The notes: a model not told the origin generated them from the sequence alone. A DNA stretch of 64,000 nt from Candidatus Omnitrophota bacterium (GCA_044225175.1 JBGAJA010000002.1:280991-344990), one strand, 5' to 3'; positions 15,301 to 21,300 are shown, counted from the first letter of the stretch. Numbers and translations are program-made.

Positions 15301-18300
15301 ATGTTCCTCAATATGGATTGTCATTGAAGGACATTCAAGAGCATTTCACCTACATCCTGGCTGATTATTCTCCTCAAATCATCAAGAAGACCCAACAGGA
15401 AATAGGTCTTCAATTTAAGGGTGTGGCTATTGAATATGAACTTTTAAGCACCACAAATACAATCCCTCAGCTTAAGAGTAAGTATGGCCAGAGGGTGCTA
15501 TGTGCCCATTCAACCAATGTCTATGACAATCTCTACGGAGACAAGGTAGGGAAGCTGAATGGACGAAATTACATGGTTGAGGTTATGGTCACTCTTCCTG
15601 AAGAAGGAATGGTCCGCATTGTTAAGGAGTTTAATCTGGATAAAGATGCCTTTCAACGAGACCTGAGGGAATATTTATTAGTTAGAAAGAATGTAGATGA
15701 GTTTCTTTTGGTCTATCAAATGCTGTTTATCCAAAGAGAACAACCATTACAGTTCTGTTTATTCTGGCAGGCCTTATGGAGAGAAATCAAATTGCCCGCT
15801 CGTCTGGTCATGATGGATGACTTAAGAAACGATATGACAATCAATACCATTCCTGAATCAGGACGAATCATTCATGAGGCTCTTTCCAAGTACAAAGGTA
15901 ATATCGAAATTTTTGTTCCAAGCCAAGCCATTGAAAGTGGATTAAATGTCTTGGATCTCCTGCACCCGGAAGGTATTTTTGAAGTCACAGACATTGCTGT
16001 CACAAGAATTGAAGAGTATGCCTTAGATCCTCGTAAAGCTGTTCCTCTGTTCTTTGATGGTTCGATTGTCTTTTGGTTTAATGCGGCTTTGTTCGCAGAG
16101 TTTGCCAAAAGCCATTACCAGAATTTTTCAATGGATGTACAAAGCCTTAAAGCCTTTGATAAAAACAAGGCTCATATGTCCTTAACGACCATGACCGTTA
16201 ACTGCCCACCTATCGCCATTAGCCTTGTTGGATTCATTGCAAGTATTGCTTTCGGTATAACAAACTTTGAAAATTTTTCTTATGGCTTCATAGGTATTGT
16301 TGTAATCATGGGATGTCTGGGGGCATTATTTTCTGGATCTGAAAAGATTAAAACTAATCCAAACAAAATAGATCTAGAAGTTGAACAAACAACAATGATA
16401 GATACAAAAGGAAATATAGTTAAGACAAGTAAACGTCTCAAAGCTCAAGAATTAAGAGCTCTACCTATTGGGTATCGGGTTACTGTTATTAAGAAATTGG
16501 ATGGTTTTAAAGCAGGTTTTAACTTTGCAGGAGTGAATCCATGGTTTTATTTGGGTAATTGCAGGGGCTTCACAATTAAAGTCGAATTTGAAATTAGAAC
16601 ACAGGGACCTGTCATTGTTGATGTAAAACCGATTAAGGATGCTAAAGGCCATATCATCCAAGAGCAAGATCAACTTATTAATGGTTCTTCTATTGAATAT
16701 GACGCCAAAGGAAATCTTGTCGAGTTTAGGGCCAATATGTCTGTCAGCGAATTCAAAAGGATCCCTAAAGATCATCGTGTAGTTGTTGTTAAGAAATTGT
16801 GCCGTTTATCAGGAGAATTTAATTTTGTTCGAATGAACCCCCGTTTCATAATGGGGAAGTATAAGAATCACATGGTTAGAGTCCACTTTGAAATCAGGAA
16901 AGACAAGGCCTTCATTGTGAATGTCGAGCTTATTAGAGATGCGCAAGGGAACGTTATAAAACACCAGATCATTAATGGCTCATCTATTGAATATGATGCC
17001 AAAGGAAAACTCGTCCAATTCAGGGTCAATATGTCCTTAAAAGATTTTAAAAAGATTCCTCAGGGGCACAGAGTAATTGCATTTAAAAAATTAGAAAAGA
17101 CAGATGGGAGATTTATTTTTGCTCGAACAATATGGTTTTACTTGATTAAGTACAAACAATACACCGCTAAAGTAGAGTTTTTTACTCATGCAAAAGGAAA
17201 TCAAACGATACAAAATGTTGTCTTGATTAGAAATACAGATGGGGAAGTCATTCCTGAGATTATTCCTCTCAAGTTTCAATCAAAATATAGGCCTATGATA
17301 AGAGAAGCCAACTGGTCAGTAGGGCGAAAAGGACGAGCGCATAAAACAACCGTTATGGGAACCCAAAGAGAACAAGACGGGTATCAAACTGTTTCAGAAA
17401 GAGAAATGATTGGGGTCATAGAGACCCATATCAAGACACATTTTAGAAATATGAATGTACCCAGAGTAATGAGATTTTTAAGAGAATTATCAGAAGTCCC
17501 GATACAAGATCGCAGCGAATTTATTAAAAGAAAAGCGCAGGCTGCCCACATAACAATAAAGAATTTTGAGAAAGTTTTAAGAGAATTAAGGAAACATCTG
17601 TCCGGTCTTATTACTGGCTTTGATCCCCCACCTGCAACCAAAGCTAAACGAAGAGGACATGTCACATTTGAGTTGTTGAGTGTGCTTACTGGGGCGCTAC
17701 TTTCTGTTTTATATCTATCCGTGCCATTGTCGAGAACTACATATGTTTTTAATGTATTTTCTGCTCCGTCATTATTTACTTTGGTTCTGGGGTTATTTTT
17801 TATAAGGCTGATCTTTCCACAGAGACAAGATTATAGTGAAACAATTGAAGAAAAGGTGACAGTTTTAAATGGGGCGGGGGATATTATTAAGATAATGAAA
17901 GTCATAAGAAACAAAGAATTGCAAGCTCTGCCAGAAGGTTATTGCATAGTTGTTATTAAGAAATTATCCAAGGGACTAGGATGCTTTAGCCTTGCACAAA
18001 GCAATTTGTTTTATTTAAGTAATTATGAAAGATTTACTGTTGAGGTAAAAATCGAGAAAAAGGGCCAGGAGTTAGTCCTCATGGATGTAAAGCTTCTCAA
18101 AGATGATCAAGGAAATAATATCCAAAAAGCAGAACAATTTATTGAAGGATCATTAATAGAGTACAACAAAGACGGCCAGGTTGTCCGATTTTGGCCGATG
18201 ATGAGATTAAAAGAATTTCAGAAAATAACCCCCGGACACCAGATGGTTGTACACAGACAGCTAGATGCTCTTGGAGGCTTTACTTTTGCCAAACCTCAAC

Positions 18301-21300
18301 GATGGTTCTTTCTTGCTGAAGTGGCAGGATACATAGTGAAGGTAAGATTTGTAATGAGAGAACATGGTGCGGTGATCATTGATGTTAAAGTCATTAAAGA
18401 TGCAGAAGGAAATCTTTTAGAAGACAAAGACACTATCCTTGATGGTACAGCAGTTGAATATGATGAACTTAGTCAAATTGTTCAATTCTGGCCGAATATG
18501 GACTCCACTGAATTTAAAAGTATATCCAATGGCCATCGATTAATTGTTGTTAAGAAATTAGACAGCTCAGATGGTGGCTTTAGTTTCGCAGGCGTTAACT
18601 CTTGGTTTTATTTAATCGGTTATGAAGGATACACCGTACAAGTAGAGTTCAAGATTGCCCAAGAGGGTGCTTTAATTATTAATGTCATACCTATTAGAAA
18701 TGCTGGGGGAGAATTTGTAGAAGCGAAAGACCGGCTTATTAAAGGAGGAGTATTTGAATATGATGAACAAGGGGAGCTTATTAAGTTTTGGAACTCTATG
18801 ACTAATAAGCATTTCAAGAATATTCCTAAAGGTCACCGTCTCTTTGTCACTAAGAATATTAGCAAATCTAACGGGCAATTTAGATTTGCACATGTGATAT
18901 GGTTCACATCGACAAAACATAGAAATTATACTGCGAAGGTATGTTTTTATATTGATCAAAATGGAAATTGTCGTATAGAAAGTGTAAATTTGATACGAGA
19001 TGGCAAAGGAAATGTTATTGATGAACAAGCCTTTCCCGTAGCGACAGGTTTAATATACCAGCATTTCTCTATAGAGGAACAATGGACAGAAGACCACAAA
19101 GGACGCAAGCACAAGACTCGCATAGCAGGTTCGCCTCGGGAAGAGAACTCATATTGCATTATTGCCGGAAGGGAGACTACTGGCATTATAGAAGATTATA
19201 TACGACAGCATGTTGATACTATCCGTATCAAAGTCTTTATGAATTTTTTAAGGGAATTAGGAGAACTTTCATTAAAGGAACGGCGTATTGCGATACAAAG
19301 AAGAACGCGTGATTGGGGAATCACTGTGGAAGCATTTAATTTAGTCTTAAAAGGGCTGAGAAAACATTTATTAGACATAATGAGTTTAGCAGTTGTAATA
19401 ATAAATTCTAAACATCTTTTTTCCCTACATTTATCCTCTGGATCAAGTGTTCATATCAATCATACAATAGTCGATGCTTTAGGCCTTAAAATCCATGCTG
19501 GCCTAGTAAACTTTTCTTGTAGCCTATTTGCAACCGTCGATGTGATGATGTCATCTTTATTGGGCTTCATGAGTCCCATCCGTGCTGGACCAACGATCTT
19601 GGGGTCTTTTGTCGGAGTAGACACGATAGGCCTAAGCGTAGGGATAGGCCTTGTTGCTCTTATAGTTTGCTTGATTTGCGTAATTCATACTGGAAGGGTT
19701 GTTACAAAACGTTTTAAGATCACCTCAATGATTGTAAGTACACTTTTCCTTGCGGTTATTAATTTTTGGTTTATTGCACCAGCTATTTCAAAAGATTCCT
19801 CAATTGTTCTCCAACTTTTCATCAATTCTATTTTCTTTATGATTTTTAGAGCCAATACAGATTTCTTTATGCAAAGCTTATCTCAGCGCGGATTTATCTT
19901 AAAACAAACTTTATTTGTCCTGCCTGCTGGTTTTGTGATGGGAATACTATCAGGAATAAGTTTGTTGTTTTTTAATACAGCCTTAACGCTTCATGAATCC
20001 GTTGGTTGGCTCAATGTACTATTGGGGCTGGGTTGGATGACAGGGTTTGTATTTCTAACTTATTTTGGGGTGGCAGTTCTTCCTCTCCTTCTAGGTAAGG
20101 AATTTAAATGGAAAGATTTAATTCAGTTTAAAGATATGAAAGCAGGAGCGCCGATAGTTGCTACAGGAACAGCAATATTCTCAATTATTTTCACAGGGTT
20201 TGTGTTTATCACTAAGAAGGTGGATAACCCGATCGCCTATGGCATCATCAATGCATTACATATCATCGGATTATTATCAATTTTTCGTTGGCGTTCAATG
20301 ATCTATCGAACTGTGGTCAAATGGGTTCAAGACGGACATAGCAAGGACCCACCGGAGATTATCTGGCAAACAAAAGGATCATTAATTGTACGTGCTGCAT
20401 TACTCACCTTTCCTGTACTTGAACATTATGCCGCAGAAATTGACAGCTTTATCAACAATATTAAAATCGGAACAATCGTAAGATATTTGAGGAATTTGAA
20501 GAAAAAAGCAGGCTCTTTATCAGCTGAAGAAGAGAATAGGTTTAAGAAATTTCTATCCACGTATGGCCAAAGTAATACAACTCTTCAGACTCCCTTGGCA
20601 GATTCCCTTCTTAGGACGCAAATCAGACGAGTGATTTATATAGAATACAAAGATAAATTAGGAAATAAAACCATCCAGAGCTCAGTAATGCTACATGCTA
20701 TAAGAAGAAGTTTTCCTCATTTAAAAGAGATTGTTGTTATCACAGAATATCCAGGACTTTATGATGGACAAGAGCGTTTAAAAACTATCGAAGTTGATTT
20801 GGTATTTTTGAATCATCAAACAAAATTGGCACAAGAGTTAGCCCAATTAGCAAAAAATGCATCTCAAAATGATCTTTTTATTTCTGATTCAGAAGGGTAT
20901 CTTCAATACCTTCATCCAAGAATTACCCGATCATTCTTCTGCCAAGCAGATAATTTCTGGGATCCTCGCTCAGAAATTTTCTCAAAGATCAGAGGGGCTG
21001 ATAAAAAGCAAAATGTCATTGATAACCAGGCAAGGCTTAGAGCACTCGGTCTTGAATTTGAAGAAAGGTTTGATTATTTCTATCAAGATTCCCGGAAATT
21101 AAAGGGAAAAGGCCAAGTTATCCTTACTCGAGCAAAGGGACAGTGGCGCTATAAGTTCAGTAAACCAGTCCTTATCATTAACCCCCACGCTGTTTTTTAT
21201 GGAATCCAAAATTGGCAACCACGATGGGCTGCTTTAATTAAACGCCTTGTTCAGTCTAATGATTATGAGATTTTTCTGACTAGCGGTACTCCGGATAATG

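What the first reader, a model, noticed from the sequence alone, without database searches (positions are those of the whole stretch)
16432..19380. Seven tandem roughly 100-aa repeats of an uncharacterised beta-rich domain, organised as two super-repeats
The 295-301-nt periodicity has the conserved core P-x-G-H-R-V-V-V-x-K-K-L...G-x-F-x-F...V-x-F-E-I...D-A-x-G-N-x-I...I-N-G-S-S-I-E-Y-D-A-K-G-x-L-V-x-F-R-x-N-M-S. A 3-unit block plus tail is duplicated as a 4-unit block plus homologous tail. A TM segment lies between the blocks. I cannot assign this repeat to a known family. It may be a substrate-carrier, ligand-binding or oligomerisation domain specific to this protein. It may also be the substrate of the in-cis glycosyltransferases.
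Basis: seen in the sequence. Interest (0 to 1): 0.6.

Follow-up and report, generated by a model that had tools for sequence, protein, structure and literature searches.

The report
Novel seven-copy beta-domain array
Seven old, diverged tandem copies of a roughly 100-residue all-beta protein domain that matches no known family lie in two duplicated cassettes inside a protein of more than 9,400 residues from an Omnitrophota-like bacterium; the repeat is real and rare, but its function is only inferred.

Summary
Window 16389-19394 lies inside one giant ORF (3-28430, + strand, more than 9,476 aa, open at the window start). It encodes seven units of 98-101 aa. They form two collinear cassettes, each made of a TM hairpin, 3 or 4 units and a tail of about 115 aa. 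One unit finds the other six by BLAST at E 1e-10 to 1e-21. The segment d2-d3-tail1 matches d6-d7-tail2 at 39.7% identity over 300 aa (E 2e-67). The copies are old: there is no DNA-level repeat and third codon positions are about 40% identical.

An exhaustive profile search of 1.84 billion representative proteins found only five credible relatives, with 1-5 units each. Across all 19 units the only near-invariant residues are glycine or hydrophobic. TM-flank charges place the arrays on the cytoplasmic side.

My best reading is a non-catalytic scaffold or binding array on the cytoplasmic face of a multi-enzyme Omnitrophota giant membrane protein. It is a new domain family in a known kind of architecture, of moderate interest.

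The parts
3..28430 (+). Host gene: a single giant ORF of more than 9,476 aa, open at the window's 5' end. It carries about 40 hydrophobic TM-like segments and scattered enzyme domains: nucleotidyltransferase-like, Bac_transf, weak MTHFR-like, GT9, Methyltransf_11, Rce1-like CAAX protease and Peptidase_M50.
16197..16331 (+). TM hairpin before block 1 (aa 5380-5398 and 5406-5424). The connecting loop is 7 residues long and carries no K/R within the flank windows; the outer flanks carry K/R.
   Evidence: Kyte-Doolittle scan, flank K+R counts
16389..16688 (+). Unit d1 (aa 5444-5543). First unit of block 1 and positional homologue of d4.
16689..16982 (+). Unit d2 (aa 5544-5641). Positional homologue of d6.
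16983..17285 (+). Unit d3 (aa 5642-5742). Last unit of block 1 and positional homologue of d7.
17286..17639 (+). Tail 1 (aa 5743-5860). A conserved basic stretch (W..KGRxHKT..G..RE..Y) is predicted disordered. It is followed by four helices with pLDDT 74-79.
17673..17804 (+). TM hairpin between the blocks (aa 5872-5890 and 5897-5915). The N flank reads KAKRRGH and the loop is 6 residues long.
17856..18152 (+). Unit d4 (aa 5933-6031). First unit of block 2.
18153..18449 (+). Unit d5 (aa 6032-6130). This is the extra unit of block 2, with no collinear partner in block 1.
18450..18749 (+). Unit d6 (aa 6131-6230). This is the unit modelled by AlphaFold2 (pLDDT 94).
18750..19052 (+). Unit d7 (aa 6231-6331). 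Last unit of block 2.
19053..19394 (+). Tail 2 (aa 6332-6445). It is 36% identical to tail 1.

Best explanation
Shown: the region encodes seven diverged copies of an autonomous all-beta domain of about 100 residues. Each copy has an N-terminal 'xEYDxxGxLV' hairpin, a one-turn helix ('M-S-x-x-E-F') and five further strands. In tandem context a short extra strand leads into the next unit. The domain belongs to no described sequence family, and Foldseek finds no structural neighbour in PDB or BFVD. The copies form two paralogous cassettes, each made of a TM hairpin, units and a tail of a basic linker plus four helices. The cassettes arose by an old duplication of a whole cassette. One unit was later gained in block 2 or lost from block 1. 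The host is a polytopic protein of more than 9,476 aa carrying many enzyme domains. It comes from an Omnitrophota-like bacterium and belongs to the published class of membrane-anchored 'multi-enzyme' giant proteins.

Inferred: each array is a soluble loop tethered to the membrane at both ends and facing the cytoplasm. It acts as a non-catalytic scaffold, spacer or binding module. It could position neighbouring enzyme modules of the same polypeptide, or recruit a partner, at the inner face of the membrane. It is unlikely to be an enzyme or a glycosylation substrate.
For: - Repeat and cassette structure.
- Autonomous fold: the AF2 single unit has pLDDT 94 and pTM 0.84, and all five models score 92-94. 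Both units keep pLDDT of about 90 in the two-unit model. A single-unit small ORF exists on another contig (L005).
- Unclassified: Pfam, NCBIfam and PHROGs gave no consistent hit. The best PDB sequence-profile hit is E 0.48. Foldseek on PDB gives a best E of 1.5 with TM no higher than 0.32, and on BFVD a best E of 0.56.
- Rarity: 9 hits in 1.84 billion representatives, of which 5 are credible.
- Non-catalytic: across 19 units from 5 proteins the only invariant or near-invariant columns are G87, L37 and I76. The GHR motif is absent from the P0001/P0006 branch. Copy number varies from 1 to 5 per array.
- Cytoplasmic side: both TM hairpins have loops of 6-7 residues with no K/R in the flank windows, and K/R-rich outer flanks. 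The same pattern surrounds the array in P0002.
- Host class and taxonomy: MutL is 71-74% identical to two MAGs, one labelled Candidatus Omnitrophota and one Planctomycetales. The giant-protein classes are described in bioRxiv 10.64898/2026.06.07.730766.
Against: - No experiment or homologue of known function bears on the role.
- The topology rests on a hydropathy scan and the positive-inside rule, not on a trained predictor.
- P0006 has only an N-terminal hydrophobic segment that looks like a signal peptide. That would put its array outside the cell.
- The window-type subfamily does conserve polar motifs (P-x-G-H-R, KK, D-A-x-G-N). These could form a specific ligand or catalytic site that is invisible at family level.
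Confidence: 0.5

Rival explanations
1. The units form a nucleic-acid-binding array. They would be small basic beta-barrel-like domains of the SH3, KOW, cold-shock or Tudor type. Together with the helical tail they would bind DNA or RNA at the membrane.
For: - Units of block 1 and both tails are basic (pI 9.5-10.5).
- In P0002 and P0006 the arrays lie in the same polypeptide as multiple HTH modules (TetR_N at 1.4e-9, HTH_24 at 7.8e-6, HNH_repeat).
- The sub-threshold best hits all come from small nucleic-acid-binding beta domains: uL24 at E 0.48, an integrase at E 1.1, and the Lin28 cold-shock domain and MYST tudor-knot.
Against: - None of those hits is significant (Foldseek probability no higher than 0.2, TM no higher than 0.32).
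- The whole giant protein is basic (pI 9.39) and unit d6 is acidic (pI 4.84), so charge is not distinctive.
- The tail is not detectably related to the HTH repeats (hhalign probability 0.1%) or to any PDB chain.
- Sharing a concatenated polyprotein-like ORF is weak evidence of shared function.
Confidence: 0.2
2. The unit is a highly divergent member of a known repeat-domain family, such as Rib, an Ig-like domain or an SH3-like barrel. It would not be a new family.
For: - Two Rib-type repeat proteins (P0003, P0008) reached whole-sequence E 1.7e-11 and 1.2e-5 in the profile search by summing weak stretches.
- hhalign of the unit profile against those repeats aligns 47 columns with a pairwise E of 9e-4.
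Against: - The hhalign probability is only 23%.
- Per-stretch scores are 1-16 bits.
- No Pfam family, including Rib, SH3 and PKD models, matches any of 19 units consistently, even at E up to 1.
- Foldseek against the PDB returned no significant match of any kind, and the 50 rows shown contain no Rib, Ig-like or SH3 chain of a repeat protein.
Confidence: 0.25
3. The array is an extracytoplasmic stalk or adhesion array. It would resemble the Ig-like, Rib or cadherin arrays of surface giants and project from the outer face of the membrane towards prey.
For: - Published work stresses surface and predation roles for Omnitrophota giants (bioRxiv 10.1101/2023.11.21.568195).
- P0002 and P0006 begin with signal-peptide-like segments.
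- Tandem beta domains are typical stalks.
Against: - The positive-inside pattern at both TM hairpins places the arrays on the K/R-rich side.
- Both ends of each array are membrane-tethered, which does not suit a projecting stalk.
- Neighbouring modules (SAM-methyltransferase-like, GT9, nucleotidyltransferase-like, GNAT in P0006) use cytoplasmic cofactors (the cofactor location is established knowledge).
Confidence: 0.1
4. The units are acceptor or carrier domains that are glycosylated by the Bac_transf and GT9 modules of the same polypeptide.
For: Bac_transf lies upstream (about aa 4300-4480 from nt 60) and GT9 downstream (about aa 7020-7140) in the same ORF. Two units carry N-M-S.
Against: - N-x-S/T is present in only 2 of 7 units and is absent from most family members.
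- No Ser, Thr or Asn is conserved across the family.
- Family members P0002 and P0006 have no Pfam glycosyltransferase hit at E up to 0.01.
- Bac_transf enzymes act on polyprenyl phosphate and GT9 on LPS-core-type acceptors, not on proteins (established knowledge of these families).
Confidence: 0.05

Closest known systems
Giant membrane-anchored 'multi-enzyme' proteins of Omnitrophota (West-Roberts et al. 2023, bioRxiv 10.1101/2023.11.21.568195; Nielsen & Lui 2026, bioRxiv 10.64898/2026.06.07.730766)
   Same: The host ORF exceeds 9.4 kaa, has dozens of TM segments and has many unrelated enzyme Pfams tiled along it. Internal domain repeats have lost their nucleotide-level repeat. The genomic relatives include a MAG labelled Omnitrophota.
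   Different: The repeated domain here is not one of the repeat families listed in the section read (TSP3, NHL, WD40, HEAT, TPR, lectin). It has no Pfam model at all. The repeat sits between TM hairpins on the predicted cytoplasmic side.
Tandem all-beta repeat domains of large bacterial proteins (Rib PF08428, Big/Ig-like, PKD, SH3b)
   Same: Units are about 80-100 residues and mostly beta-strand. They lie head to tail, are diverged in sequence and vary in copy number between relatives.
   Different: There is no significant sequence or Foldseek match. hhalign to Rib-type repeats gives 23% probability. Each unit contains a one-turn helix and a YD-like hairpin. The arrays are tethered at both ends by TM hairpins rather than projecting from the surface.
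RHS/YD repeat (PF05593)
   Same: The N-terminal hairpin of each unit reads x-E-Y-D-x-x-G-x-L-V, like a single YD repeat. Pfam RHS_repeat gives a sub-threshold match there (E 0.21, 12.5 bits against a cut-off of 22).
   Different: The resemblance covers only one hairpin of about 25 residues per 100-residue unit. There is no array of consecutive YD repeats, no shell-forming architecture and no RHS core or toxin tip.
Small beta-barrel nucleic-acid-binding domains (KOW/uL24, cold-shock/OB, Tudor/chromo)
   Same: The size and the five-strand core are similar. These are the top, though insignificant, hits in both the sequence-profile and the Foldseek searches.

Membership tests
Omnitrophota giant membrane-anchored multi-enzyme proteins (Nielsen & Lui 2026, class 1) | A very long single ORF (their catalogue threshold is at least 10 kaa) | tested here: inconclusive
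   At least 9,476 aa are visible and the frame is open at the window start. The true length is unknown but probably exceeds 10 kaa.
Omnitrophota giant membrane-anchored multi-enzyme proteins (Nielsen & Lui 2026, class 1) | Many distinct Pfam domains tile the polypeptide and none dominates by copy number | tested here: met
   Bac_transf, GT9, Methyltransf_11, Rce1-like and Peptidase_M50 are each present once. There are also weak NTP_transf_2 and MTHFR hits.
Omnitrophota giant membrane-anchored multi-enzyme proteins (Nielsen & Lui 2026, class 1) | Numerous TM helices | tested here: met
   There are 52 hydropathy peaks of at least 1.6, which amount to about 40 separate segments. This is a Kyte-Doolittle scan only, not DeepTMHMM.
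Omnitrophota giant membrane-anchored multi-enzyme proteins (Nielsen & Lui 2026, class 1) | Omnitrophota genome | tested here: inconclusive
   MutL is 71% identical to that of a 'Candidatus Omnitrophota' MAG and 74% identical to that of a MAG labelled Planctomycetales. Both MAGs have about 39% GC and a giant ORF in the same position. No phylogeny was made.
Rib domain (PF08428) / Ig-like repeats | Match to the Pfam model at gathering score | tested here: not met
   No Rib or Ig-like Pfam hit for any of 19 units, even at E up to 1.
Rib domain (PF08428) / Ig-like repeats | Profile-profile or structural similarity to Rib repeats | tested here: inconclusive
   No Pfam hit. Foldseek on PDB returned nothing at E up to 0.001, and no SH3b or PKD chain is among the rows shown.
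RHS/YD repeat proteins | Multiple consecutive YD repeats reaching the Pfam threshold | tested here: not met
   There is a single sub-threshold stretch (12.5 bits against 22) and one hairpin per unit.
Helix-turn-helix / sigma-70 region 4 (considered for the tails) | Sequence-profile similarity to HTH domains | tested here: not met
   - Pfam gave only weak non-HTH hits.
- hhalign against the HTH repeats of P0002 and P0006 gave probability 0.1%.
- The PDB profile search gave nothing.
- No homologues were found.
- Foldseek of the model containing the tail gave nothing.

The most novel reading that the evidence does not exclude
The unit is a truly new fold, and each cassette of beta-array plus tail is a discrete product released from a polyprotein-like giant precursor. 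In P0006 and P0002 the array-plus-tail module is bracketed exactly by lineage-specific short motifs: ANAAG at 740 and 1380 in P0006, and ARLA at 1428 with ARMA at 1796 in P0002. These motifs recur 5-12 times per protein, far above chance. The window's giant protein has its own motif, RAGP (5 observed against 0.054 expected). If these are proteolytic processing sites, they would be the first concrete candidate cleavage points for Omnitrophota giant proteins.
Probability: 0.15. Interest if true: 0.7.

Novelty: new variant of a known kind. Interest (0 to 1): 0.4.

Why it matters
Giant Omnitrophota proteins are largely unannotated. About 15% of them have no hit in any domain library (bioRxiv 10.64898/2026.06.07.730766), and how they are organised is an open question.

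This finding defines one piece of that unannotated sequence:
- It has exact domain boundaries and a high-confidence model.
- It comes with a family profile that can be used to annotate other giants.
- It occurs in only a handful of proteins out of 1.84 billion cluster representatives (standing for about 15 billion predicted proteins), so it is a lineage-restricted invention.
- It may be a new small beta fold worth solving.

Its position between TM hairpins gives a testable picture of how soluble modules hang from the membrane in these proteins.

The side observation of recurring motifs at module boundaries bears on a question the field has called unanswerable for lack of cleavage points. That question is whether the giants act whole or as processed pieces.

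Tried and rejected
- Word-index homologue searches with the unit profiles (A1, A2) and the tail profile (A6) returned nothing. They did not even recover proteins whose own units were in the query. Only the exhaustive search was informative.
- The search for related loci with the whole repeat region found no relative in genome contigs or metagenome contigs.
- The giant ORFs next to mutL in the two closest genomes (L001, L002) were checked for the domain. It is absent, and their last 3,000 aa or so share only one segment of about 150 aa with the window's protein.
- The tail as an HTH or sigma-4 domain was rejected. Homology of the tail to the post-array regions of P0006/P0001 and P0002 was also rejected.
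- Rib-domain kinship stays unsupported.
- Hits P0003, P0007, P0008 and P0009 from the exhaustive search were judged spurious. They are repetitive proteins with 1-18 bits per stretch.
- Assembly artefact or recent tandem expansion was rejected. Units are 22-46% identical, there is no DNA repeat, and third-position identity is about 0.4.
- N-M-S as a glycosylation sequon was rejected because it is not conserved.
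Full report
**Setting.** The finding lies inside a single open reading frame on the + strand that ends at nt 28430. The ORF lister reports it from nt 60 as 9,456 aa. The same frame has no stop back to nt 3, so the gene runs off the window's 5' end and encodes more than 9,476 aa. I number residues from nt 60, so residue i starts at nt 60+3(i-1).

Pfam finds several domains scattered along the ORF:
- weak nucleotidyltransferase signals;
- Bac_transf (8e-21);
- a weak MTHFR-like stretch;
- GT9 (1e-15);
- Methyltransf_11;
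- an Rce1-like CAAX protease (5e-20);
- Peptidase_M50 (4e-9).

A hydropathy scan gives 52 peaks, which amount to about 40 separate TM-like segments. The neighbouring genes are housekeeping genes: mutL, mutS, a ComM-like gene, accA and rlmN.

MutL is 74% and 71% identical to that of two metagenome-assembled genomes. One is labelled Candidatus Omnitrophota and the other Planctomycetales. Both have about 39% GC, like the window. Both carry a giant ORF convergent with mutL at the same position.

The host therefore fits the published class of membrane-anchored, multi-enzyme giant proteins of Omnitrophota. In that class, internal domain repeats that have lost their nucleotide-level repeat are described as the rule (bioRxiv 10.64898/2026.06.07.730766; bioRxiv 10.1101/2023.11.21.568195).

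- The anchor motif occurs exactly seven times, at aa 5468, 5568, 5666, 5957, 6056, 6155 and 6255. The period is 98-100 aa.
- BLASTP of one unit against the entire giant protein recovers the other six at E 1e-21 to 2e-10. The next hits are at E of about 6.6.
- Profiles of the unit find seven copies in the six-frame translation of the window and none elsewhere.
- Tandem Repeats Finder sees nothing at DNA level.
- Third codon positions of positional homologues are only 39-48% identical.

The copies are therefore old. They are not an assembly artefact and not a recent expansion, and there is no sign of recent homogenisation.

**Super-repeat.** Windowed self-BLAST shows collinear homology between d2-d3-tail1 and d6-d7-tail2: aa 5551-5847 against 6138-6437, 39.7% over 300 aa, E 2e-67. 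It also shows homology between d1 and d4 (43%, E 2e-20). A neighbour-joining tree pairs d1 with d4 and d3 with d7. The tails are 36% identical (E 9e-26).

So a whole cassette was duplicated, and d5 is the unit gained in block 2 or lost from block 1. Each block is preceded by a pair of hydrophobic helices: aa 5380-5398/5406-5424 and aa 5872-5890/5897-5915.

**Anatomy of the unit.** In each block a partial 'I-D-x-x-G-x-I-V' hairpin precedes the first anchor.

AlphaFold2 was run on unit d6 with a 19-row alignment of units from five proteins. It gives mean pLDDT 94 and pTM 0.84, and all five models score 92-94. The predicted elements are strands 2-4 and 10-13 (the hairpin), helix 19-23 (M-S-x-x-E-F), and strands 30-36, 43-46, 49-54, 62-70 and 73-83.

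In a model of two units plus the tail, both units keep pLDDT of about 90, and a short extra strand links each unit to the next hairpin. The first 40 or so residues of the tail include the conserved W..KGRxHKT..G..RE..Y stretch and are predicted disordered. Four helices follow at pLDDT 74-79.

**Comparison with what is known.**
- Single units and whole blocks have no Pfam hit above noise.
- Scanning all 19 units against Pfam and PHROGs gives only scattered hits, each matched by a single member.
- NCBIfam gives nothing relevant.
- A profile search of PDB sequences gives uL24 at E 0.48 and an integrase at E 1.1.
- Foldseek of the high-confidence model gives a best E of 1.5 with TM no higher than 0.32 in the PDB, and a best E of 0.56 in BFVD.
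- The longer model also finds nothing.

I can therefore say 'no detectable relative', but not 'new fold'.

Two Rib-type repeat proteins appeared in the exhaustive search by summing many weak stretches. A direct profile-profile test gives only 23% probability. I treat these as spurious or at best undecided.

The tails have no homologues. They are not related to HTH repeats or to any PDB chain. They are also unrelated to the regions that follow the arrays in other family members.

**Relatives.** An exhaustive HMMER search of 1.84 billion cluster representatives with the seven-unit profile gave nine hits at E up to 1e-3. Five are convincing on inspection:

| Protein | Length | Units | Source |
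|---|---|---|---|
| P0006 | 2,053 aa | four canonical units plus a divergent fifth | JGI metagenome |
| P0001 | 693 aa (a fragment of a similar protein) | four canonical units plus a divergent fifth | not looked up |
| P0002 | 3,144 aa | two | NCBI MAG contig JACQQX010000068 |
| P0004 | 93 aa (fragment) | at least two; an in-frame stop separates two units | ENA contig L006 |
| P0005 | 109 aa | one; apparently a small single-unit ORF | ENA contig L005 |

GC content ranges from 38% to 55%, so the family is rare but not confined to one lineage.

Across the 19 units, the only invariant or near-invariant columns are one glycine and two aliphatic residues. The P-x-G-H-R motif of the window's units is missing in the P0001/P0006 branch. 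The giant ORFs at the syntenic position in the two closest genomes lack the domain. They share only one segment of about 150 aa with the window's protein, in line with the published picture of sequence-unique giants.

**How it most likely works.**

*Shown.* The unit is an autonomous beta domain in variable copy number, without family-wide polar conservation. In this protein it forms two arrays, each bounded by TM hairpins.

*Inferred.* The hairpin loops are 6-7 residues long with no K/R in the flank windows, while the outer flanks are K/R-rich, for example KAKRRGH before aa 5872. By the positive-inside rule both arrays and tails face the cytoplasm. The array region of P0002 is bracketed in the same way. 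Neighbouring modules such as methyltransferase, GT9 and nucleotidyltransferase-like domains use cytoplasmic cofactors (established knowledge).

I therefore read the arrays as non-catalytic scaffold or binding loops held at the inner face of the membrane. I give this a confidence of about 0.5 for the whole statement: the anatomy is secure and the role is not.

*Rivals.*
- A nucleic-acid-binding array. Basic units and co-occurrence with HTH modules in P0002 and P0006 favour it. But the whole protein is basic and one unit is acidic.
- A very divergent member of a known beta-repeat family.
- An extracytoplasmic stalk.
- A glycosylation acceptor. N-x-S/T is present in only 2 of 7 units, and no Ser, Thr or Asn is conserved.

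**Side observation.** The most over-represented tetrapeptide in the giant protein is RAGP, with 5 occurrences against 0.054 expected. The five sites are at aa 190, 1193, 6508, 7255 and 7641. Four of the five lie next to hydrophobic TM-like segments, and two occur within LLGFMSPIRAGP. The motif is absent from 9,981 aa of the window's other ORFs. It is encoded with synonymous differences, so the conservation is at protein level.

P0002 has [AG]-A-R-L-A-type sites 12 times (ARLA 7 against 0.31 expected). P0006 has A-N-A-[AG]-G-type sites 5 times. In P0006 the array-plus-tail module lies exactly between two such sites (740 and 1380). In P0002 it lies between sites 1428 and 1796.

These look like module boundaries and could be processing sites. 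West-Roberts et al. state that cleavage points are unknown. I did not test this further.

**Verdict.** The 'uncharacterised beta-rich domain' reading is supported. The 'specific to this protein' and 'glycosylation substrate' readings are not supported. This is a new domain family within a known kind of architecture, namely repeat arrays in Omnitrophota giant proteins. It is of moderate interest, with a more interesting but unproven lead attached.

Noticed in passing
window 627-638, 3636-3647, 19581-19592, 21822-21833, 22980-22991 (aa 190, 1193, 6508, 7255, 7641 of the giant ORF); also P0002 and P0006 (loci L004, L003): A lineage-specific short motif recurs at module boundaries.
- RAGP occurs 5 times in the giant protein against 0.054 expected. 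It occurs 0 times in 9,981 aa of the window's other ORFs, and its codons differ synonymously.
- [AG]ARLA-type sites occur 12 times in P0002, and ANA[AG]G-type sites 5 times in P0006.
- In P0002 and P0006 these sites bracket the beta-array module exactly.

They could be proteolytic processing sites or linkers of polyprotein-like giants. Published work says cleavage points are unknown.
   Followed up: partly
window 3-28430 compared with L001 12638-21767 (-) and L002 8813-18416 (-): All three related genomes have a giant ORF convergent with mutL-mutS. The last 3,000 aa or so of the relatives' ORFs share only one segment of about 150 aa with the window's protein (aa 2500-2643, 31-34% identity). 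The locus is conserved but its content has turned over.
   Followed up: partly
window 69-320 and 5124-5375 (aa 4-87 and 1689-1772): The nucleotidyltransferase-like module at the start of the visible ORF is duplicated about 1,685 aa downstream (39% identity, E 8e-17). A segment of about 34 aa preceding RAGP is also duplicated (aa 6478-6511 against 7228-7258, 62% identity). The giant protein therefore contains further internal paralogy.
   Followed up: no
L006 1-515 (ENA ERZ1649853, coverage about 0.9): Two tandem units of the same domain family are separated by a single in-frame stop codon inside the hairpin (EYDADG*LVAW). This could be a sequencing error on a low-coverage contig, a pseudogene or recoding.
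   Followed up: no
L005 296-625 (ENA ERZ27280116): One unit appears to stand alone as a small ORF. The hairpin of the unit lies upstream of the annotated ATG, so the real start is probably earlier. This suggests the domain can function outside giant proteins.
   Followed up: partly
window 17286-17420 and 19053-19190 (start of both tails): The stretch W..KGRxHKT..G..RE..Y..RE..G.IE is conserved between the two tails, although AlphaFold2 predicts it disordered (pLDDT below 50). It may be a linear motif for binding, modification or cleavage.
   Followed up: no
window 33981-37079 (+) and 55564-60237 (+): Two further large ORFs (1,032 aa with a signal-peptide-like N terminus, and 1,557 aa) have no Pfam match at E up to 1e-5.
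   Followed up: no
L003 7792-13953 (P0006) and L004 4473-13907 (P0002): The other carriers of the domain are multi-module proteins of 2-3 kaa. They combine a signal-peptide-like N terminus with modules normally found in the cytoplasm (GNAT, four tandem TetR/HTH_24-like HTH units, HNH_repeat). An ORF6N-domain gene lies next to P0006.
   Followed up: partly
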